15,761 nucleotides of DNA from a virus, in the UHGV virus genome UHGV-0242293, one strand, 5' to 3'. Every line of letters begins with the position of its first letter. The stretch's first letter is position 1. Positions 7,474-15,761 of the stretch are shown here, in pieces. Both the position numbers and the translations under genes were made by a program. The notes under the pieces are model-generated. The model did not search any database and had not been told where the DNA came from. It saw only the letters and a program-made list of their open reading frames with translations.

Positions 7474-7646
7474 TGTCAGGAGTCCTGAATAGTGATTAGA
7501 GGAGTCACATGTCGGCATCAGTTTCCCGACGATACGCATCCTCCGCCATCAGTCCCGGATGGCTTATCACTGACACAACAGCACCTTAGCGAATCGCGGG
7601 GCGCGACTCAGTAGCCTTGCCGTGTATTCATCACGGCGAGGTATTC
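7474..7646. promoter_or_regulatory. Divergent O/P intergenic region, expected site of the divergent late promoters
   Basis: 173-bp gap between the divergently transcribed O and P genes. In P2 the late promoters for the O and P operons lie here. I did not find an exact TGT-N12-ACA activator dyad by eye, so promoter elements are not pinpointed. Confidence 0.4.
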
Positions 7647-9419
7647 ATGACCATCACCACAGACACCACTCTTTTACACGACCCGCGTCGTCAGGCGGCG
7701 CTGCTGTACTGGCAGGGGTTTTCCGTGCCGCAGATTGCCGCCATGTTGCAGATGAAACGCCCGACGGTGCAGAGCTGGAAACAGCGCGACGGCTGGGACA
7801 GCGTTGCCCCCATCAGCCGTGTCGAAATGAGTCTGGAAGCGCGGCTGACCCAGCTCATCATCAAACCGCAGAAAACCGGCGGTGACTTCAAGGAAATTGA
7901 CCTGCTGGGACGTCAGATTGAACGACTGGCACGGGTCAACCGCTACAGTCAGACCGGCAACGAGGCAGACCTTAATCCGAACGTCGCTAACCGCAACAAA
8001 GGCGGGCGTCGCAAACCGAAAAAGAATTTTTTCAGTGACGAGGCCATCGAAAAGCTGGAGCAGATTTTCTTTGAGCAGTCTTTCGAATATCAGTTGCACT
8101 GGTATCGCGCCGGGCTTGAGCACCGCATCCGCGATATCCTGAAATCCCGCCAGATTGGCGCGACGTTTTATTTTTCCCGCGAGGCGCTGCTGCGCGCCCT
8201 GAAAACCGGTCATAACCAGATTTTTCTGTCGGCCAGTAAAACGCAGGCGTATGTGTTCCGCGAATACATCATCGCCTTTGCCCGGCTGGTTGACGTTGAC
8301 CTGACCGGTGACCCGATTGTCCTGGGCAATAACGGCGCAAAACTGATTTTTCTCGGCACCAACTCCAACACCGCACAGAGCCATAACGGCGACCTGTACG
8401 TCGACGAGATTTTCTGGATCCCGAATTTTCAGGTACTGCGTAAGGTGGCATCAGGTATGGCCTCACAGAGTCACCTGCGCTCGACCTATTTCTCCACCCC
8501 GTCCACGCTGGCGCACGACGCCTACCCGTTCTGGTCGGGTGAACTGTTCAACCGGGGACGCGCCAGCGCCGCCGAACGCGTGGAAATCGACGTCAGTCAT
8601 AACGCCCTTGCCGGAGGTCTTCTCTGTGCGGACGGCCAGTGGCGGCAGATTGTCACCATTGAGGACGCCCTGAAAGGCGGCTGCACGCTGTTCGACATTG
8701 AGCAGCTCAAACGTGAAAACAGCGCCGACGATTTTAAAAACCTGTTCATGTGTGAATTTGTTGACGACAAGGCGTCGGTGTTCCCGTTCGAGGAGCTGCA
8801 ACGTTGCATGGTCGACACGCTGGAAGAATGGGAAGACTATGCGCCGTTTGCCGCAAATCCGTTCGGCTCCCGCCCGGTATGGATTGGTTACGACCCGTCA
8901 CACCGTGGCGACAGCGCCGGATGCGTGGTACTGGCACCGCCGGTGGTGGCCGGTGGCAAATTCAGAATACTTGAGCGTCACCAGTGGAAAGGCATGGACT
9001 TTGCCACCCAGGCGGAATCCATCCGCAAACTCACCGAAAAATATAACGTTGAATACATCGGGATTGATGCCACCGGCCTCGGTGTCGGCGTGTTCCAGCT
9101 CGTGCGCTCGTTCTATCCCGCCGCGCGCGATATCCGCTACACGCCGGAAATGAAAACCGCAATGGTGCTCAAGGCAAAAGACGTTATCCGCCGTGGCTGT
9201 CTGGAATATGACGTCAGCGCCACCGACATCACCAGCTCGTTTATGGCTATCCGCAAGACCATGACCAGCAGCGGACGCAGCGCCACCTATGAGGCCAGCC
9301 GCAGCGAGGAAGCCAGCCACGCCGATCTCGCCTGGGCGACTATGCACGCCCTGTTAAATGAGCCACTCACCGCCGGTATCAGCACCCCGCTGACATCCAC
9401 CATTCTGGAGTTTTACTGA
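7647..9419 (+). CDS. P: Terminase large (ATPase) subunit gpP
   Basis: Start at MTITTDTTLLHDPRRQAALLYWQGF (ATG 7647, SD ggcgagg upstream) gives 590 aa, matching P2 gpP; the track ORF starts 10 codons earlier. Confidence 0.92.
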   Translation: MTITTDTTLLHDPRRQAALLYWQGFSVPQIAAMLQMKRPTVQSWKQRDGWDSVAPISRVEMSLEARLTQLIIKPQKTGGDFKEIDLLGRQIERLARVNRYSQTGNEADLNPNVANRNKGGRRKPKKNFFSDEAIEKLEQIFFEQSFEYQLHWYRAGLEHRIRDILKSRQIGATFYFSREALLRALKTGHNQIFLSASKTQAYVFREYIIAFARLVDVDLTGDPIVLGNNGAKLIFLGTNSNTAQSHNGDLYVDEIFWIPNFQVLRKVASGMASQSHLRSTYFSTPSTLAHDAYPFWSGELFNRGRASAAERVEIDVSHNALAGGLLCADGQWRQIVTIEDALKGGCTLFDIEQLKRENSADDFKNLFMCEFVDDKASVFPFEELQRCMVDTLEEWEDYAPFAANPFGSRPVWIGYDPSHRGDSAGCVVLAPPVVAGGKFRILERHQWKGMDFATQAESIRKLTEKYNVEYIGIDATGLGVGVFQLVRSFYPAARDIRYTPEMKTAMVLKAKDVIRRGCLEYDVSATDITSSFMAIRKTMTSSGRSATYEASRSEEASHADLAWATMHALLNEPLTAGISTPLTSTILEFY

Positions 9420-10438
9420 TGAGTAAGAAAAAAGGGAAAACACCGCAGCCAGCGGTGAAAACAATGACTGCCAGCGCCCCGAAAATGGAGGCATTCACCT
9501 TTGGTGAGCCGGTGCCGGTACTCGACCGCCGTGATATTCTGGATTACGTCGAGTGCATCAGTAACGGCAGATGGTATGAGCCACCGGTCAGCTTTACCGG
9601 TCTGGCAAAAAGCCTGCGTGCTGCCGTGCATCACAGCTCACCGATTTACGTTAAACGCAATATTCTGGCTTCAACGTTTATCCCGCACCCGTGGCTGTCC
9701 CAGCAGGATTTCAGCCGCTTTGTGCTGGATTTTCTGGTGTTCGGTAATGCGTTTCTGGAAAAGCGTTACAGCACCACCGGTAAGGTCATCAGACTGGAAA
9801 CCTCACCGGCAAAATATACCCGCCGTGGCGTGGAGGAGGATGTTTACTGGTGGGTGCCGTCCTTCAACGAGCCGACAGCCTTCGCGCCCGGCTCCGTGTT
9901 TCACCTGCTGGAGCCGGATATCAATCAGGAGCTGTACGGCCTGCCGGAATATCTCAGCGCCCTTAACTCTGCCTGGCTGAATGAGTCGGCCACGCTGTTC
10001 CGCCGCAAGTATTACGAAAACGGCGCTCATGCCGGATACATCATGTATGTCACCGATGCCGTGCAGGATCGCAACGATATCGAAATGCTTCGCGAAAACA
10101 TGGTTAAGTCGAAAGGCCGCAACAACTTTAAAAACCTGTTTCTCTATGCCCCACAGGGGAAAGCCGACGGCATTAAAATTATCCCCCTCAGTGAAGTGGC
10201 GACGAAGGACGATTTTTTTAATATCAAAAAAGTCAGCGCCGCAGATCTCCTGGACGCACACCGCATCCCCTTTCAGTTGATGGGCGGTAAGCCGGAGAAT
10301 GTCGGGTCACTAGGAGATATTGAAAAAGTGGCAAAGGTCTTTGTCCGCAATGAACTCATTCCATTACAGGAGAGAATAAAGTCAATAAATGAATGGTTAG
10401 ATATGGAAGTAATAAAATTCCTTGATTATAACTTATAA
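9419..10438 (+). CDS. Q: Portal protein gpQ
   Basis: 339-aa ORF (MSKKKGKTPQPAVKTMTASAPKMEAFTFGEP...) matching P2 gpQ; start overlaps the P stop (TGATG). The last ~15-30 codons are AT-rich, suggesting the 3' end was remodelled by the adjacent insertion. Confidence 0.88.
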   Translation: MSKKKGKTPQPAVKTMTASAPKMEAFTFGEPVPVLDRRDILDYVECISNGRWYEPPVSFTGLAKSLRAAVHHSSPIYVKRNILASTFIPHPWLSQQDFSRFVLDFLVFGNAFLEKRYSTTGKVIRLETSPAKYTRRGVEEDVYWWVPSFNEPTAFAPGSVFHLLEPDINQELYGLPEYLSALNSAWLNESATLFRRKYYENGAHAGYIMYVTDAVQDRNDIEMLRENMVKSKGRNNFKNLFLYAPQGKADGIKIIPLSEVATKDDFFNIKKVSAADLLDAHRIPFQLMGGKPENVGSLGDIEKVAKVFVRNELIPLQERIKSINEWLDMEVIKFLDYNL

Positions 10439-10480: not shown

Positions 10481-11188
10481 CTATATATACTTCCTTTTTA
10501 CTCTACTTAATTCTATCACTGATGAGGAGTGACAAAATGACAAATTAATAGTATCGATATAATCCAAAATTTGACTCTCAACCTCAATAAAAATATTTTT
10601 GGGCCCATTACTAATCGATATACCGATTTCATCCAAAACAGCCATCATTTTTCTCTGATGAGTTTTATATTTATAGTCTTTATTTTCCTCTGTAATATGT
10701 GCATTGGCTTCCTCAATAACACATTTGATTCTAGATATTATTTCTAGATAATCTCTCGAAACAGATATATCACCGCCTTGCGCTTCAGGGAACATAACCC
10801 TATACCATCTAAAAAAATTAACTTTCTCTGGATAGATGCTACTTCTTTTAGTTAACTCAGCACTTGCAAATTCTCTAAACATCGTCAGATGACTAGTGTA
10901 ATTACTATTATTATTATTTTTAACTCCAGCGTTATATGTCATCAAAGCAATCATAACACCAAAAACGGTAACAAAAGTTGTTATAAGCCATCCAAACGCC
11001 TGAAAATACATTACTATACCAGATGTTTTTTCCGCAAAAAATTTTAAGCACTGGCTATCGAAGCATATATCACGCTCATATAGCTTTTCATTCTGAATAG
11101 TTTCAAAAAGAGAAATTAGCGAAAAAATCAAAAAAAGAGCTGACGACACACCGACAATATATTTGAGAAGTCTAATATTTGCATTCAT
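10481..11188 (-). CDS. Retron-associated effector: two N-terminal transmembrane helices plus a ~150-aa soluble C-terminal domain of unknown function
   Basis: 235-aa ORF. Hydrophobic stretches LLKYIVGVSSALFLIFSLISLF and IVMYFQAFGWLITTFVTVFGVMIALMTY. Its ATG overlaps the RT stop as ATGA (11185-11188), indicating translational coupling. AT-rich, unlike the phage backbone. Confidence 0.75.
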   Translation of the reverse strand: MNANIRLLKYIVGVSSALFLIFSLISLFETIQNEKLYERDICFDSQCLKFFAEKTSGIVMYFQAFGWLITTFVTVFGVMIALMTYNAGVKNNNNSNYTSHLTMFREFASAELTKRSSIYPEKVNFFRWYRVMFPEAQGGDISVSRDYLEIISRIKCVIEEANAHITEENKDYKYKTHQRKMMAVLDEIGISISNGPKNIFIEVESQILDYIDTINLSFCHSSSVIELSRVKRKYI

Positions 11189-12375
11189 AATGGTTTTAAA
11201 GATGCCAATCTAGATTTAAAACACTCCAGTTTTTCTTTAAATGATTCAGAGCGAGTAAGAATAATCATCTTATATTTCGTCAAATCATATTTTCTTTTAT
11301 ACCAATGTTTATTTTGATTACCTTTCGAATACGACAACTCTAAACTTTTTATAGCTGCATCAATCACAGCAACATCTCTTTTAGATGGCATCGGTTTTAT
11401 TGCCTGCAACTGTTTCTTGAATGATTCATATTTTTCATGCGCAACACGGCCAAGCTTATTCACTCTCCCCATACATCTATTGAATTCTTTTCTGTATGCA
11501 ACACTTGTTTTTGTGTTATTTTTTGCCGCCAGTAATTTCAAATTATGTATAGATGCCCTGATTCTTTTGACTTCATCGGATGGTAGTCGAGGTGAGTCAT
11601 AGTCAACTCTTAAACCATGTACTTTTATAGGTTCAGATGAACAGTGAAATATTTTAGTTTTGCGCTTATTTATCGGCAAGTCATGCTCAGAAAGCATCCT
11701 CTCTATATGGCTTTGCATTTGAGAAAAATCATAATTACTTATTTTAGATGACACGGTAATATCATCTACCAAACGCGTATAAACAAGTCCTTTCCTCTGC
11801 GCACGTCTTACCACATCCCCTTCAACAGCGAATAAACACAAAGTTGCTATATAGCTTGATGTTAAGGCCCCCTGTACGACAAAATCATCCTTAGTACATA
11901 TATCCACCAAGTATTCAAGAGCCTCATCCTTAATATGCAATATCTCCTCAAACACGCTCCTAACCAGATCTCTATGGATATTATCGAAAAAATTACTTAT
12001 ATCCACCTTGAGAACTGTTTTTGCTCCACAATGAGCCTTTGCACATGAAACATAGTCACGTTTGACATTAGAATTTAAAACATCATTTTTACTGGGAACT
12101 GAACCAAACAAAAATGAAGGAAAAACAACCAATTCCTTAAAGATACGTTTATTAATTCTACTCTGTAATAATCTCATTTTAGGATGCAGGGAGTAGACAA
12201 TCCGTTTGCTTCCGTCAATTTTGGGAATTTCTTTTAGAGTATATTTCTCATCTAATGGTAATTCTGCAATAGCTTTAAGCTCTTCAACAGAAATCGATAA
12301 AGCCTTTGACAACTTTTCAAGTGTTGTGATAGGAGCATTGGATTTGCTGTATGGTTTAAATTTATCCATAAACAT
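11185..12375 (-). CDS. Retron-type reverse transcriptase
   Basis: RT motifs in the translation: LKVDISNFFDNI (motif A), QGALTSSYIATLCLF (motif B), YTRLVDDITV (YxDD active site), NKRKTKIF, then KVHGLRV where retron RTs have the VTG signature. Block-by-block similarity to retron Ec86 RT from memory. Start is uncertain: 12375 or 12369 is favoured by alignment, but 12411 and 12459 are in frame. Confidence 0.85.
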   Translation of the reverse strand: MFMDKFKPYSKSNAPITTLEKLSKALSISVEELKAIAELPLDEKYTLKEIPKIDGSKRIVYSLHPKMRLLQSRINKRIFKELVVFPSFLFGSVPSKNDVLNSNVKRDYVSCAKAHCGAKTVLKVDISNFFDNIHRDLVRSVFEEILHIKDEALEYLVDICTKDDFVVQGALTSSYIATLCLFAVEGDVVRRAQRKGLVYTRLVDDITVSSKISNYDFSQMQSHIERMLSEHDLPINKRKTKIFHCSSEPIKVHGLRVDYDSPRLPSDEVKRIRASIHNLKLLAAKNNTKTSVAYRKEFNRCMGRVNKLGRVAHEKYESFKKQLQAIKPMPSKRDVAVIDAAIKSLELSYSKGNQNKHWYKRKYDLTKYKMIILTRSESFKEKLECFKSRLASLKPL

Positions 12376-12443
12376 ACCATTCAAATTCAAAGTTACGTAC
12401 GGTCTTCCCATACTCAAGGGTGGAACAGCAGAGATGCTTACAT

Positions 12444-12593
12444 CAACAATTGTCAGCAACAGCCTCTGCTATCTTTCGACCGTACGTAATGTCGTCGGCT
12501 ACGGCACCATCGTAGTTGACGACGGTGGGGCCTCGCTGATAGGTCCATAGTGGACGCTTTTTTGTAAAAGCAAAAACTGACAATTTAATGTTG
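12444..12593 (-). ncRNA. Candidate retron msr-msd non-coding RNA
   Basis: Immediately upstream of the RT on the same strand. An interrupted inverted repeat (minus strand caacaTTAAattgtcag at 12577-12593, and ctgacaattgttg at 12444-12456) brackets ~120 nt. Inside are stem-loops gcttttacaaaaaagc, gtccactatggac, and a longer imperfect hairpin gtcgtcaactacg/cgtagccgacgac. Boundaries and the branching G are not determined. Confidence 0.4.
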
Positions 12594-12646
12594 TTGACTG
12601 CCGCATACCAAGCGAATCGCTGGTGCGCTAAGAATAATGCAACAAA

Positions 12647-12676
12647 AAAATAAGAATTTCAACCGGGTAACTGCAA
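12647..12676 (-). promoter_or_regulatory. Candidate sigma70 promoter for the retron ncRNA-RT-effector operon
   Basis: On the minus strand: TTGCAG (12676-12671), an 18-nt spacer, then TATTTT (12652-12647), about 50 nt upstream of the proposed a1 repeat. Confidence 0.35.
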
Positions 12677-12700
12677 GCCAGCGACATCGTTTAGCGCGCA

Positions 12701-12719
12701 GTGCTTTCCCCGCCTCGCC
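12701..12719. other. P2-type cos site (19-nt cohesive end)
   Basis: The minus strand reads GGCGAGGCGGGGAAAGCAC, which is the P2 cohesive-end sequence as I recall it, followed by TGCGCGCT. It lies between the terminase/portal genes and the tin/old-equivalent locus, as expected. Confidence 0.8.
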
Positions 12720-12742
12720 CGCCCGCTTCATGGGGCGGTTTT
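12719..12742 (+). terminator. GC-rich hairpin plus T-tract next to cos; possible intrinsic terminator
   Basis: ccgccc-(8 nt)-gggcgg followed by tttt on the plus strand. It abuts the cos core, so it may instead be part of the packaging site. Confidence 0.3.
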
Positions 12743-12925
12743 AATGCAGTAGCATGACCACTCAACTAGCGCGCCAGTCCTGATGTCGCCAGGCAGTTAT
12801 TGTTCTCTGACTTGCGTGCGCTTCGATGCAGAGTAATGCACTTCCTGAATTGCTCGCATTCGCATCGTTATCATGATAGAAAACAGGTAGTTATTTGTGC
12901 GCAACTTAAGAAGAAATCACTAATT

Positions 12926-14470
12926 ATGAAAAAGATTTATGAATTAACTACTGGTAGAGCGCTTAAGTATTTTCTGCAGCATGATTCATACACTACTCTG
13001 GAGCTACCCAGTTATGTCGATTTTTCTTCCTTGCTTGAAGAAATCAACTCCGCGATAGATGAAGGTAAAATCAACTTCCAACCTGACTCCAAGTCATTGA
13101 TGGGGAAGAATATAAATTACGAGGTTTTAGTCAGCAAAGATGGCTTATATAGCTGGCGACGAATAACACTAATTAATCCTCTGTACTACGTGTATTTTTG
13201 TAAACTTATTACATCCCCTTCCAACTGGAAGGCTATAAAGAATAAATTTAGAGAGTTTGAGTCTAATGATCTTTTTTTATGCTCAAGTACCCCAGTGAGC
13301 AAAAAGAACACCTCAAACGTAGCTGCATCTGTTTTAAACTGGTGGGAAGATTTTGAACAAAAAAGTCTTTCATTGGCTCTTGAGTATGAGTTCATGTTCA
13401 GCACAGATATTTCAAACTTCTACCCTTCTATTTACACTCATAGCTTTGAATGGGTATTCATCTCAAAAGAAGAGGCCAAAAAGAAAGAAAATAACAATAA
13501 CCCAGGACGATTGATTGACACTCATATCCAGATGATGATGAGTAATCAGACAAACGGAATACCATTGGGTAGTACGTTGATGGATACATTTGCCGAATTA
13601 ATTTTAGGCGAAATTGATTTACAGCTAAGAAAAAAAACTGAAGAGCAAAAAATAACGGATTACAAAGTAGTTCGCTACAGAGATGATTATCGAATATTTT
13701 CAAGCAGTAAAGATGATTTGGACAAAATCTCAAAGTGTTTGGTTGAGGTCTTAGGTGAGTTTGGGCTTGATTTAAACTCAAGAAAAACAGAACTACATGA
13801 CGACATCATTCTTCACTCTCTTAAATCAGCAAAAAAAGAATATATTATAGAAAGGTCGTTCAACTCCCTACAGAAAATGTTGTATGCAATATATTTATTT
13901 TCTTTAAAACATCAAAACTCCAAAATTACAGTTAGATATTTAAATGATTTCTTGCGAAAATTATTTAGGAAGAAAAAGATCACAAATAGTGGGCATCAAC
14001 TAGATGCAATGCTTGGAATTATTTCAAGCATCATGGCTAAAAACCCAACCACCTACCCAGTGGGAATGGCTATTTTCGCAAAACTCTTGACCTTCCTTTA
14101 TGACGACGATGAACTCAAATTTGGCAAGTTACAACAACTTCATTGTAAACTAGGTAAACAACCAAATACTGAAATGTTAGATATTTGGTTTCAACGAGTT
14201 CAAGGGAAGATACACACACAATGGGAAGGCGATTACAAAACAGCCCTATGTCAACGCATAAATGATGAACTCAAGGGAAAAAAAACATTTACCATTGATG
14301 GCCTGTGGGATGTAGAGTGGATTCCGGGCTCAGCCAAAAGTAAAAACAAACAGAAAATACTATCAATTTTGAAAAAAACAAAAATTGTGGATTTAGATGC
14401 ATTCGAAGAAATGGATAATGATATTACACCAGAAGAAGTGAACTTATTCGACAAGGAACACAGCGCTTAA
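12926..14470 (+). CDS. Abi-like reverse transcriptase (proposed Abi-P2 / UG-Abi class) with a C-terminal alpha-helical domain
   Basis: 514-aa product from the ATG at 12926 (the track ORF begins in GC-rich cos-proximal DNA at 12800). RT motifs FSTDISNFYPSIYTH, GIPLGSTLMDTFAELIL, VVRYRDDYRIF (YxDD), GLDLNSRKTEL; the C-terminal ~200 aa lacks RT motifs. No VTG motif, and no obvious structured ncRNA or partner gene. It sits where P2 carries tin/old, where Abi-P2 RTs have been reported. Confidence 0.8.
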   Translation: MKKIYELTTGRALKYFLQHDSYTTLELPSYVDFSSLLEEINSAIDEGKINFQPDSKSLMGKNINYEVLVSKDGLYSWRRITLINPLYYVYFCKLITSPSNWKAIKNKFREFESNDLFLCSSTPVSKKNTSNVAASVLNWWEDFEQKSLSLALEYEFMFSTDISNFYPSIYTHSFEWVFISKEEAKKKENNNNPGRLIDTHIQMMMSNQTNGIPLGSTLMDTFAELILGEIDLQLRKKTEEQKITDYKVVRYRDDYRIFSSSKDDLDKISKCLVEVLGEFGLDLNSRKTELHDDIILHSLKSAKKEYIIERSFNSLQKMLYAIYLFSLKHQNSKITVRYLNDFLRKLFRKKKITNSGHQLDAMLGIISSIMAKNPTTYPVGMAIFAKLLTFLYDDDELKFGKLQQLHCKLGKQPNTEMLDIWFQRVQGKIHTQWEGDYKTALCQRINDELKGKKTFTIDGLWDVEWIPGSAKSKNKQKILSILKKTKIVDLDAFEEMDNDITPEEVNLFDKEHSA

Positions 14471-14957: not shown

Positions 14958-15119
14958 TTATATGTTTGTTGAGAATCCCGGCCACTCATCAGCGACCGGA
15001 TACGTGAATTTTTCCCCGTCATAATTTACGGTCGCGCCACGCGCCAGCGCCTCAAGCTCCCATCGCTGTGGCCTGATACCGTTCTGAGCAAGGTCAACGC
15101 GGATACGGGTAATTTGCAT
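14958..15119 (-). CDS. Hypothetical small protein (53 aa), not in the ORF track (below 60 aa)
   Basis: Hand translation of the minus strand: MQITRIRVDLAQNGIRPQRWELEALARGATVNYDGEKFTYPVADEWPGFSTNI. Lies 61 nt upstream of the previous ORF on the same strand. No family recognised. Confidence 0.3.
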   Translation of the reverse strand: MQITRIRVDLAQNGIRPQRWELEALARGATVNYDGEKFTYPVADEWPGFSTNI

Positions 15120-15188
15120 TCGTTCCGACCGGGTCAGTCTGGCCGATGGCGCTATTTCATGCGGTTTTAACGGGCTTCCGTTTCTTTG

Positions 15189-15208
15189 CTGACATCGTGT
15201 TATGTCAG
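15189..15208. promoter_or_regulatory. Perfect 7-bp inverted repeat with a 6-bp spacer; candidate operator in a divergent intergenic region
   Basis: CTGACAT-cgtgtt-ATGTCAG read directly, about 70 nt upstream of the minus-strand 53-aa ORF and about 60 nt upstream of the plus-strand ORF at 15269. Confidence 0.3.
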
Positions 15209-15268
15209 TTTACTGGATACAGGGCAAGTGAATGCCCCTTTCCATGAATTAGATTAAAGGCTTGCAAA

Positions 15269-15472
15269 ATGAACAATAACAGTAAGAAAACTTTGAGTAA
15301 GAAAAGAACCAAGAAAGCCAAAAAGAAGTCGCTTACCCCTGAACAAAAAGCATTGCAAGCAGAACAAGCAGCAAAAAAAGCGCAAATTATAGAGAATAGG
15401 CGCTCTATTACAGCTCATGCTATTAATCTTTTTCAGCAATATACAGCACTCCGTAAAAAAGGATTGTCGTAA
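15269..15472 (+). CDS. Hypothetical small, very basic, Lys-rich protein (67 aa)
   Basis: ORF with an AAAGG Shine-Dalgarno 8 nt upstream of the ATG. Product MNNNSKKTLSKKRTKKAKKKSLTPEQKALQAEQAAKK... AT-rich context. Confidence 0.4.
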   Translation: MNNNSKKTLSKKRTKKAKKKSLTPEQKALQAEQAAKKAQIIENRRSITAHAINLFQQYTALRKKGLS

Positions 15473-15761
15473 ATGCCACTCTATAGCACTATCTTTTATA
15501 TGTATCTCGCAGACAGGGCATACAATAAGCCCCATAGATGTTACAGGTAGCTTTTTGCCACCGATTAAGCGTAATGTATTTGCATTCTGGTTATGTACTT
15601 TCTTTTGGTTCCTAACAATGAAACAATCAGAAGCGTGGAAACTCGCGACTGATGAAGAATCTAGTATGACTTTTTTAAGCAATCAGTACATAAGTCCATT
15701 AACATCACACGAACCCAATAATGAAATATCTCTTATCATGGATGGAACGGATATAGCCATT

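What the first reader, a model, noticed from the sequence alone, without database searches (positions are those of the whole stretch)
12444..12676. Candidate msr-msd RNA with interrupted a1/a2 inverted repeats and its own promoter
The 5' leader of the RT gene contains a 13-bp inverted repeat interrupted by a 4-nt bulge (12577-12593 versus 12444-12456), enclosing ~120 nt with two short hairpins and one long imperfect hairpin. A TTGCAG-18-TATTTT promoter-like element lies just upstream. This is the layout expected for a retron ncRNA, but it is assigned by structure only.
Basis: seen in the sequence. Interest (0 to 1): 0.6.

Follow-up and report, generated by a model that had tools for sequence, protein, structure and literature searches.

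The report
Known retron Ec48 non-coding RNA

Summary
The inverted repeat exists at the stated coordinates and is a real RNA helix. It covaries across 27 diverse type IV retron loci, and cognate arms pair far better than permuted partners (0 of 20,000).

The locus is retron Ec48 (Retron-Eco6). The published Eco6 ncRNA maps to window 12648-12463 on the minus strand. The published RT-DNA starts opposite C12482. The effector is sequence-identical to Swiss-Prot TM48_ECOLX, and the RT carries the LVDD box.

1. The conserved promoter is TTGAAA-17-CATTAT (12662-12634), not TTGCAG-18-TATTTT.
2. The conserved structured RNA spans about 12628-12388. It adds a 5' hairpin and a 3' three-way junction (helices X, Y, H). 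The a2 strand lies in the apical loop of Y, so a1:a2 crosses X and Y, as a pseudoknot or a switch.
3. The msDNA template starts 25 nt upstream of a2, inside helix X, so the canonical layout of a2 abutting the msd start is not met. The branching G could not be assigned.

Novelty: already known. The extended, crossing fold of type IV retron RNAs is a modest by-product that I did not find described in the literature available to me.

The parts
12634..12662 (-). Sigma-70-type promoter TTGAAA (12662-12657), 17-nt spacer, CATTAT (12639-12634). The predicted transcription start is about 12628-12626.
   Evidence: It is the only consensus promoter match in 12300-12850. The -35 hexamer is conserved in close homologues. 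A promoter-like site with its -10 ending 14-18 nt before the invariant P0 loop G is found in 26 of 27 loci. The start site is inferred, not measured.
12608..12623 (-). P0, the 5'-terminal hairpin CCAGCG-AUU-CGC(U)UGG. It contains the AGCGA motif with G12620, one candidate branching G.
   Evidence: Compensatory changes are seen. It is 83% paired, with 5 of 6 pairs changed on both sides. The loop-closing pair G12618-C12614 is invariant.
12576..12605 (-). The a1 strand: outer UGC 12605-12603, distal GUCAACA 12598-12592, a 7-nt bulge, and proximal AUUGUCAGU 12584-12576.
12556..12571 (-). msr hairpin 1 (GCUUUU-ACAA-AAAAGC). Its first base, G12571, is G in 25 of 27 loci.
   Evidence: It is 96% paired, with 5 of 6 pairs changed on both sides.
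12543..12555 (-). msr hairpin 2 (GUCCA-CUA-UGGAC).
   Evidence: It is predicted and recovered by the blind column-pair scan. Distant loci carry different hairpin sequences at this place.
12482..12529 (-). msd, the template of the 48-nt msDNA. DNA synthesis starts opposite C12482 and runs towards 12529. Palka et al. report an end 3 nt shorter.
   Evidence: The published RT-DNA string maps to + strand 12482-12641. Text on the 48-nt length and the 3-nt-shorter end comes from PMC8989520. Published Ec48 donor primers match 12536-12513 and 12516-12494.
12478..12489 (-). Helix X, 5' arm (UUACGUACGGUC). It overlaps the first 8 templated bases of the msd.
   Evidence: It forms a perfect 12-nt inverted repeat with 12393-12404. 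It is 91% paired with 12 of 12 pairs changed on both sides.
12463..12473 (-). Helix Y, 5' arm (GAUAGCAGAGG).
   Evidence: 87% paired, with 10-11 of 11 pairs changed on both sides.
12435..12457 (-). The a2 strand, lying in the apical loop of helix Y: proximal 12457-12449, distal 12448-12442, outer GCA 12437-12435.
12424..12434 (-). Helix Y, 3' arm (UCUCUGCUGUU).
12407..12420 (-). Hairpin H (CCC-UUGAGUAU-GGG). It contains AUG 12411, the start of the 408-aa RT annotation.
   Evidence: It is 97% paired, with CG-to-UA changes and compensating insertions.
12388..12404 (-). Helix X, 3' arm (GACCGUACGUAA, 12404-12393) plus the conserved tail CUUUG.
   Evidence: Covariance model R1, which covers 12492-12387, hits once per locus in 53 of 56 sources, always just upstream of the RT.
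11185..12369 (-). Retron Ec48 reverse transcriptase. It is 394 aa from ATG 12369, or 408 aa from ATG 12411. The LVDD box falls at D202/D203, which is D216/D217 in the 408-aa numbering.
   Evidence: Pfam RVT_1 5e-31. PADLOC RT_IV 9.9e-177. RefSeq CDS. DD positions match the D216A/D217A mutants of Millman et al..
10481..11188 (-). Retron Ec48 two-transmembrane effector (235 aa).
   Evidence: NCBIfam retron_Ec48_2TM scores 226.7 bits against a cut-off of 65. PADLOC 2TM_IV 4.1e-85. The sequence is exactly the one named TM48_ECOLX.

Best explanation
The interval is the msr-msd non-coding RNA gene of retron Ec48 (Retron-Eco6, type IV). The retron sits between the cos site and the portal gene of a P2-like prophage of E. 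coli.

How it works:
1. A sigma-70 promoter (TTGAAA-17-CATTAT) starts transcription at about 12628-12626 (inferred). [quoted passage not shown]
2. The leader folds into a conserved structure of about 240 nt (supported here by covariation).
3. The a2 strand is the apical loop of Y. The a1:a2 helix therefore crosses X and Y, either as a pseudoknot or as an alternative conformer.
4. The RT primes from the 2'-OH of a guanosine and copies the msd from C12482 towards 12529, giving the 48-nt msDNA that RNase H1 trims (from the literature).
5. The msDNA, RT and effector complex guards RecBCD. Phage RecBCD inhibitors (lambda Gam, T7 gp5.9) trigger the membrane effector and abortive infection (from the literature, Millman et al.).
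6. Which G is the branch point, and how it reaches a template start buried in helix X, remain unresolved.
For: Identity of the locus:
- The published Eco6 ncRNA aligns to 12648-12463 (minus strand) with only three single-base indels in text extracted from a PDF (probably extraction errors). The RT-DNA string aligns to 12482-12641.
- Published Ec48 donor primers match the msd.
- The effector is exactly TM48_ECOLX.
- RT_IV, 2TM_IV and retron_Ec48_2TM profile hits.
- The LVDD box and D216/D217 numbering match the literature.
- The region is 100% identical in E. coli genomes, where the neighbouring gene is annotated as a retron Ec48 family effector, and in phage pro147.

Structure:
- Plain-MAFFT alignments give 87.5% paired cells against 67.8% in shuffles and 38-43% when slid. 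53 of 57 pairs change on both sides, 0 of 500 shuffles. The 3' domain alone gives the same result.
- A covariance model of the 3' domain finds exactly one hit per locus, upstream of the RT and on its strand, in 53 of 56 sources. There are no other hits in 329 kb.
- The model-based alignment is 89% paired.
- Permutation test for a1:a2: 0 of 20,000.

Promoter.

Function: Millman et al. 2020 preprint and Palka et al. 2022.
Against: - No Rfam family matches, even at E<=10, and no solved structure of a type IV retron exists. The fold therefore rests on covariation alone.
- The canonical layout of a2 directly next to the msd start is not met.
- The ncRNA sequence given in the census supplement ends at 12463 and so excludes a2, Y', H and X'. 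If that truncated RNA makes msDNA on its own, the 3' domain is dispensable for reverse transcription.
- The transcript ends are predicted, not measured.
- Whether a1:a2 coexists with X/Y cannot be decided by computation. Nested-only energies are -74.7 against -84.0 kcal/mol.
Confidence: 0.93

Rival explanations
1. Canonical reading. The repeat 12593-12577 / 12456-12444 is the priming a1/a2 stem, G12577 at its end is the branching G, and reverse transcription begins right next to a2.
For: The helix is real and strongly covarying. In most loci the a1 arm ends in or near a G. It encloses the msr hairpins and the msd as in textbook retrons.
Against: The published RT-DNA 5' end is templated by C12482, 25 nt 5' of a2. 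Synthesis starting at about 12457 would give a product of about 73 nt, not 48 nt. The column of G12577 holds G in only about 14 of 27 sequences. The 25 intervening nucleotides form helices X and Y, which covary.
Confidence: 0.15
2. Annotation-end reading. The priming stem is formed by the two ends of the published ncRNA (about 12648-12622 with 12481-12463), and the branching G is G12620 in the AGCGA motif.
For: The two ends of the census ncRNA can pair at -10.3 kcal/mol, which puts a2 directly 3' of the msd start. The census states that its ncRNAs are bounded by a1/a2. From memory, AGCGA is the same context as the branching G of Ec86 (UUAGCGA). G12620 lies in the most conserved element of the RNA.
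Against: Cognate partners pair no better than permuted ones, both for the 28-nt arm (2565 of 20,000) and for the short 7-nt flank (4115 of 20,000). The 5' arm overlaps the conserved -10 box and lies upstream of the predicted start site. The 3' arm is occupied by covarying helices X and Y. G12620 is itself paired in P0 and is G in only 22 of 27 loci. That this pairing is the published a1/a2 is my inference from the ends of the sequence; I could not read Mao et al. 1997.
Confidence: 0.3
3. The 3' part (X, Y, H; 12489-12388) is not part of the retron RNA proper. It is a separate cis-regulatory leader of the RT/effector mRNA, and it alternates with a1:a2 as a switch. Copying the first 8 msd bases, followed by RNase H, would destroy the X 5' arm, free X' just upstream of the RT ribosome-binding site, and so couple reverse transcription to translation.
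For: X' ends 16-37 nt before the RT start in nearly all loci. The msd start lies inside X. The sister type VI retrons use a hybrid RNA in which msDNA synthesis derepresses translation (preprint 10.1101/2025.10.22.683967). The X+Y state is more stable than the a1:a2 state in nested folding.
Against: The helices share no nucleotides with a1:a2, so nothing forces them to be mutually exclusive. The ribosome-binding site itself is not sequestered. There are no expression data.
Confidence: 0.3
4. The inverted repeat is a chance match in an AT-rich leader.
For: A 9-bp perfect core is expected about 0.5 times in 500 nt (my estimate), and it ranks seventh of 12 repeats.
Against: Covariation and the cognate-partner test reject this.
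Confidence: 0.01

Closest known systems
Retron Ec48 / Retron-Eco6 (type IV retron; Mao, Inouye and Inouye 1996/1997; Millman et al. 2020; Palka et al. 2022)
   Same: It is this element. The ncRNA and msd sequence are the same. The effector protein is identical. The RT has the LVDD box and the D216/D217 numbering. It has the two-gene RT plus 2TM architecture.
   Different: Nothing differs at the sequence level. The ncRNA sequence listed in the census supplement (12648-12463) is shifted relative to the conserved structured RNA (about 12628-12388). It includes about 20 nt of promoter and lacks a2, Y', H and X'.
Canonical retron ncRNA, for example Retron-Eco1 (Ec86)
   Same: It lies upstream of the RT on the same strand. 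It has a long-range a1:a2 helix, short msr hairpins and an msd that yields a hairpin-forming msDNA. The RT is the nearest solved relative (E = 2.4e-16).
   Different: In Ec86 (from memory) the branching G directly follows a1, and the first templated base lies 1-2 nt before a2. Here the template start is 25 nt from a2 and is base-paired in a further conserved helix. The RNA also has a 5' hairpin and a 3' three-way junction that Ec86 lacks. The a1:a2 helix crosses other helices.
Type VI retron hybrid RNA (Retron-Vpa2; bioRxiv 10.1101/2025.10.22.683967)
   Same: It belongs to the same RT clade 3. Its RNA extends well beyond the msr-msd, has several arms around a central node, and has long-range inverted repeats.
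   Different: The type VI RNA encodes a small toxic protein and makes almost no msDNA until it is triggered. Ec48 makes abundant msDNA constitutively, and its effector is a separate 2TM protein downstream of the RT.

Membership tests
Retron (msr-msd ncRNA plus retron RT) | A retron-clade reverse transcriptase immediately downstream on the same strand | tested here: met
   RVT_1 5e-31. PADLOC retron RT_IV 9.9e-177. The RT CDS is 12369-11185, about 20 nt after the conserved RNA ends.
Retron (msr-msd ncRNA plus retron RT) | Long-range inverted repeat (a1/a2) enclosing the msr and msd | tested here: met
   Proximal, distal and outer segments are 74%, 97% (63% for the two innermost distal pairs) and 100% paired, and every pair changes on both sides. 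One search gives 0 of 20,000 permutations.
Retron (msr-msd ncRNA plus retron RT) | The msd (first templated base) directly abuts a2, and the branching G directly follows a1 | tested here: not met
   The published RT-DNA 5' end maps to C12482 and a2 begins at 12457, a 24-25 nt gap that forms helices X and Y. G12577 is not conserved. This concerns the geometry, not the existence of a branch.
Retron (msr-msd ncRNA plus retron RT) | One to three short msr hairpins 3' of a1 | tested here: met
   hp1 12571-12556 is 96% paired with covariation. hp2 12555-12543 is seen.
Retron (msr-msd ncRNA plus retron RT) | A stable stem-loop in the msd | tested here: inconclusive
   There are two exclusive hairpins. 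12523-12491 is 72% kept and changes break it. 12527-12505 is 94% kept, with one-sided changes only.
Retron (msr-msd ncRNA plus retron RT) | Production of msDNA with a 2'-5' branch to a specific G | not testable with these tools
   The literature reports a 48-nt RT-DNA from this sequence. I could not obtain the branch position, because Mao et al. 1997 is not held.
Retron (msr-msd ncRNA plus retron RT) | Match to a curated RNA family model | tested here: not met
   There was no Rfam 15 hit at the gathering threshold over the whole window, and only noise at E<=10 in 12350-12700. No Rfam family matched this RNA.
Type IV retron (Ec48 family) | RT of the type IV clade with the unusual LVDD catalytic box | tested here: met
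   RT_IV 585.8 bits, with 385 of 386 profile positions matched. TRLVDDITV is at residues 198-206. The title of Mao et al. 1996 is cited.
Type IV retron (Ec48 family) | A two-transmembrane effector gene overlapping the RT stop codon | tested here: met
   retron_Ec48_2TM scores 226.7 against a cut-off of 65. 2TM_IV 4.1e-85. The 4-nt overlap is at 11185-11188. The sequence is identical to TM48_ECOLX.
Type IV retron (Ec48 family) | Leader RNA with the P0, a1:a2, X, Y and H architecture (defined here) | tested here: met
   The window is the top hit of model R1 (99.4 bits). All helices are present.

The most novel reading that the evidence does not exclude
Type IV retron RNAs, Ec48 included, are not canonical a1-msr-msd-a2 cassettes. 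They are a conserved, roughly 240-nt crossing (pseudoknot-like or switching) fold. The a2 strand is the apical loop of a 3' stem (Y), and the first templated bases are locked in a further helix (X:X') that reaches almost to the RT ribosome-binding site. On this reading, the ncRNA sequence listed for Eco6 in the census supplement (ending at 12463) cuts off a functional domain, and priming or RT/effector expression is controlled by this 3' domain. That could explain why the one other type IV retron assayed with a trimmed ncRNA in the census gave no RT-DNA, and why Eco6 edits poorly.
Probability: 0.4. Interest if true: 0.55.

Novelty: already known. Interest (0 to 1): 0.28.

Why it matters
As a finding it only re-identifies a textbook element. 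Ec48 is the retron for which the model of guarding RecBCD was established.

The useful by-products are practical:
- A covariation-backed secondary structure for the whole type IV leader.
- A corrected promoter and likely transcript start.
- The observation that the msDNA start sits inside a conserved helix far from a2.

Ec48 RT and ncRNA are used in retron and prime-editing work. If the 3' domain matters for reverse transcription or expression, constructs built from the truncated annotation would be sub-optimal. The priming geometry of clade-3 retrons (types IV to VI) would also need revisiting.

Tried and rejected
- Rfam at gathering and permissive thresholds gave nothing relevant.
- PDB sequence search found no type IV structure.
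- The original msDNA-Ec48 paper (PMC179752) and the Se72 priming paper (PMC11114809) are not held. Supplements of Simon 2019, Palka 2022 and Mestre 2020 contain no Ec48 RNA sequence or branch position. Full-text searches for sequence strings and for 'msDNA-Ec48' were unproductive.
- G12400, the X' partner of the msd start, would give a permuted retron with the primer strand downstream. I rejected it as the branching G because that column is A in 13 of 27 loci.
- A short priming helix between the 5'-terminal flank of P0 and the bases 3' of the msd start showed no cognate advantage. The same holds for the longer pairing implied by the published ncRNA ends. One search used badly placed zones and was superseded.
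- The alternative pairing CAGUUUUUGCU/AGCAGAGGCUG occurs only in the window and in L056, so I treat it as chance.
- A blind column-pair scan recovered the known helices plus several mutually exclusive 3-bp stacks. One of them is UUG 12573-12571 with 12482-12480, which would put the near-invariant G12571 opposite the msd start. It is too weak to be more than a lead.
- AUG 12411 as a conserved start codon: rejected. The AUG is kept in hairpin H even where it is out of frame (L006) or followed by a stop (L052, L015).

Full report
**1. What is in the window**

The 15.8-kb window is part of a P2-like prophage of E. coli. It carries the terminase (7617-9419) and portal (9419-10438) genes on the + strand. 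Further genes of the P2 late region are annotated in an identical chromosome.

Downstream of the portal gene, on the minus strand, lie a 235-aa gene (10481-11188) and a reverse transcriptase (11185-12369, or to 12411). The RT scores 9.9e-177 against the PADLOC type IV retron RT model. The small protein scores 4.1e-85 against 2TM_IV and 226.7 bits (cut-off 65) against NCBIfam retron_Ec48_2TM. A second, divergent RT on the + strand is AbiP2.

The 2.45-kb retron region is 100% identical in many complete E. coli genomes and covers at least 80% of the query in 57 of them. RefSeq names the small gene a retron Ec48 family effector and annotates no RNA there. Phage pro147 carries the same region. It likewise lacks an RNA feature and has a small, presumably spurious ORF on the opposite strand.

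**2. The observation**

Read on the minus strand, 12593-12577 is CAAC[ATTA]AATTGTCAG and 12456-12444 is CTGACAATTGTTG, exactly as reported. The perfect core is 9 bp, which alone is not beyond chance.

The 165-nt minus-strand RNA folds to -53.1 kcal/mol, with a z-score of -3.84 against dinucleotide shuffles. The repeat closes two short hairpins and the msd region.

The proposed promoter, TTGCAG-18-TATTTT, does not pass the consensus scan. The only site found is TTGAAA-17-CATTAT at 12662-12634.

**3. Identity**

The supplement of the retron census (PMC10849725) lists an ncRNA and an RT-DNA for Retron-Eco6 (Ec48). Aligned to the window, the ncRNA is 12648-12463 on the minus strand. It differs only by three single-base indels in text extracted from a PDF, which are probably extraction errors. 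The RT-DNA string is the + strand from 12482 onwards.

Several independent items agree:
- Primers published for Ec48 donor insertion match the msd.
- Millman et al. inactivated the Ec48 RT at D216/D217. The window RT has LVDD at 202/203 counted from ATG 12369, which is 216/217 counted from the in-frame ATG 12411.
- LVDD is the feature named in the title of the 1996 paper on this RT.
- The effector is letter-for-letter the protein that UniProt calls Retron Ec48 transmembrane protein, TM48_ECOLX.

The finding is therefore the Ec48 msr-msd gene. Palka et al. sequenced its RT-DNA. They report a tight initiation site, the previously reported 48-nt length, and a 3' end three bases shorter than first described. 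This places the msd at 12482-12529 (or 12526).

**4. Comparative test of the fold**

I collected two sets of relatives:
- seven close relatives (RT 60-78% identical);
- 48 species-level relatives (41-57% identical).

In the close set the non-coding region is conserved over about 280 nt, from the -35 box to AACTTTG at 12388. Compensatory changes are visible by eye.

A positional stem search on all loci found three helices almost everywhere, with sequences that differ completely between genera:
- X:X', 10-14 bp, with arms about 70-78 nt apart and ending 16-37 nt before the RT start.
- Y:Y', nested inside X.
- a1:a2, whose 3' arm lies in the apical loop of Y.

Best X stems have a median length of 12 bp, against 7 bp in shuffled sequences.

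The formal counts are as follows.

| Test | Result | Call |
|---|---|---|
| 27 diverse leaders, plain MAFFT, whole structure | 87.5% of cells paired; 67.8% in shuffles; 38-43% when slid | 77 |
| Same alignment, pairs changed on both sides | 53 of 57; 0 of 500 shuffles reach the observed value | 77 |
| 3' domain alone | Same conclusion | 72 |
| a1:a2 cognate against permuted partners | -21.3 against -10.4 kcal/mol; 0 of 20,000 | 82, also 65 |
| Covariance model of the 3' domain | One hit per locus in 53 of 56 sources, on the RT strand, just upstream of the RT; E from 6e-24 to 1e-3; nothing else in 329 kb | 86, 87 |
| Alignment made with that model | 89% paired | 88 |

Per-helix pairing:

| Helix | Cells paired |
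|---|---|
| P0 | 83% |
| a1:a2 outer | 100% |
| a1:a2 distal | 97% (five pairs), 63% (two innermost pairs) |
| a1:a2 proximal | 74% |
| hp1 | 96% |
| X | 91% |
| Y | 87% |
| H | 97.5% |

**5. The resulting model**

All coordinates are minus-strand RNA, 5' to 3'.

| Element | Coordinates |
|---|---|
| Hairpin P0 | 12623-12608 |
| a1 outer / distal / proximal | 12605-12603 / 12598-12592 / 12584-12576 |
| Hairpin hp1 | 12571-12556 |
| Hairpin hp2 | 12555-12543 |
| msd | 12529-12482 |
| X, 5' arm | 12489-12478 |
| Y, 5' arm | 12473-12463 |
| a2 proximal / distal / outer | 12457-12449 / 12448-12442 / 12437-12435 |
| Y, 3' arm | 12434-12424 |
| Hairpin H | 12420-12407 |
| X, 3' arm | 12404-12393 |
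| Conserved tail CUUUG | 12392-12388 |

Because a2 lies between the two arms of Y, the a1:a2 helix crosses X and Y. The helices share no nucleotides, so they may coexist as a pseudoknot or alternate. Nested-only folding gives -74.7 kcal/mol for the a1:a2 state and -84.0 for the X+Y state. A transcript ending at a2 folds into the a1:a2 state.

Homologues use GUCAACA/UGUUGAU.

The former may still matter in the DNA product.

**6. Promoter**

A -35/-10 pair with the -10 ending 14-18 nt before the invariant loop G of P0 is found in 26 of 27 loci. In 15 of these it is the best promoter-like site in the 450 nt examined. This places the start at about 12628-12626, so P0 is the 5'-terminal hairpin. 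The first 20 nt or so of the listed Eco6 ncRNA would then be promoter DNA in the native context. This is an inference; no transcript data were available.

**7. What does not fit the canonical retron**

The first templated base, C12482, lies 25 nt 5' of a2. It sits inside helix X, paired with G12400.

The two ends of the listed ncRNA can pair (12647-12622 with 12481-12464, -10.3 kcal/mol). That would put an a2 right next to the msd start and a G (12620, in AGCGA) two bases after an a1. From memory, this is the same context as the Ec86 branching G. However, this pairing shows no cognate advantage. Its 5' arm overlaps the -10 box, and its 3' arm is taken by the covarying X and Y helices.

Candidate branching Gs:
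- G12620, G in 22 of 27 loci and paired in P0.
- G12577, at the end of a1 and not conserved.
- G12571, G in 25 of 27 loci, at the base of hp1. A weak 3-bp stack would place it opposite C12482.
- G12400 is excluded by non-conservation.

I could not obtain the 1997 paper that mapped the branch, so this point stays open.

**8. Function**

Function is taken from the literature, not tested here. The Ec48 RT, its catalytic aspartates and the transmembrane helices of the effector are all required for defence. Phage RecBCD inhibitors trigger abortive infection. RNase H1 sets the RT-DNA 3' end.

The sister type VI retrons use an extended hybrid RNA in which msDNA synthesis derepresses translation. That makes a regulatory role for the type IV 3' domain conceivable. 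Copying the first eight msd bases would dissolve helix X and free X' next to the RT ribosome-binding site. This is speculation.

**9. Verdict**

- The element is already known and experimentally characterised.
- The conserved, crossing architecture of type IV retron leaders, and its mismatch with the ncRNA sequence in circulation, is a modest new point. I did not find it described in the papers I could search.

Noticed in passing
window 12926-14470 (+); the mechanical ORF runs from 12800: There is a second reverse transcriptase, divergent from the retron. It is AbiP2 (PADLOC AbiP2 4.7e-160, 514 aa in RefSeq). The prophage therefore carries two RT-based defence genes back to back, one on each side of cos.
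   Followed up: partly
window 12701-12719 (-), with shared block 12693-12783: The 19-mer GGCGAGGCGGGGAAAGCAC, which I recall as the P2 cohesive end (from memory), occurs once. P2-like phages share only this block of about 90 nt with the query. Ec48 therefore sits between cos and the portal gene, the same kind of site that a review describes for Ec86 and Ec67.
   Followed up: partly
window 12719-12738 (+): A GC-rich terminator-like hairpin, CCGCCCGCTTCATGGGGCGG followed by TTTT, directly abuts the cos 19-mer. Its role was not examined.
   Followed up: no
window 12499-12502 (-), inside the msd: A G-U/G-A-G motif (GUAG here) has A12500 and G12499 nearly invariant across type IV loci, although the surrounding msd sequence varies. 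It could be a recognition or termination signal in the RNA or in the msDNA (CTAC).
   Followed up: no
window 12409-12411 (-), in hairpin H: AUG 12411 starts the 408-aa RT annotation used in the literature, while RefSeq uses ATG 12369 (394 aa). The AUG is conserved as part of the H loop/stem (UAUGGG) even where it is out of frame with the RT or followed by a stop. It is probably structural rather than a start codon.
   Followed up: partly
window 12206-12550 (+); pro147 ORF32 at L058 3251-3367: Mechanical or annotated ORFs on the strand opposite the ncRNA overlap the msr-msd. They are most likely spurious calls over an unannotated RNA gene.
   Followed up: no
census supplement, retron terminals 506 and 530 (not in the window): Terminal 530, another type IV retron assayed in the census, gave no RT-DNA by PAGE. 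Terminal 506 was not assayed for RT-DNA and gave 0% human editing. The 530 ncRNA as cloned stops within or before X'. Trimming of the 3' domain is a possible cause, but this is untested.
   Followed up: no
window 14958-15761 (-): By coordinate mapping from the identical chromosome, this is the 3' part of the P2 replication endonuclease gene (gpA-like). AbiP2 therefore occupies the position between A and cos where, from memory, P2 carries tin and old.
   Followed up: no
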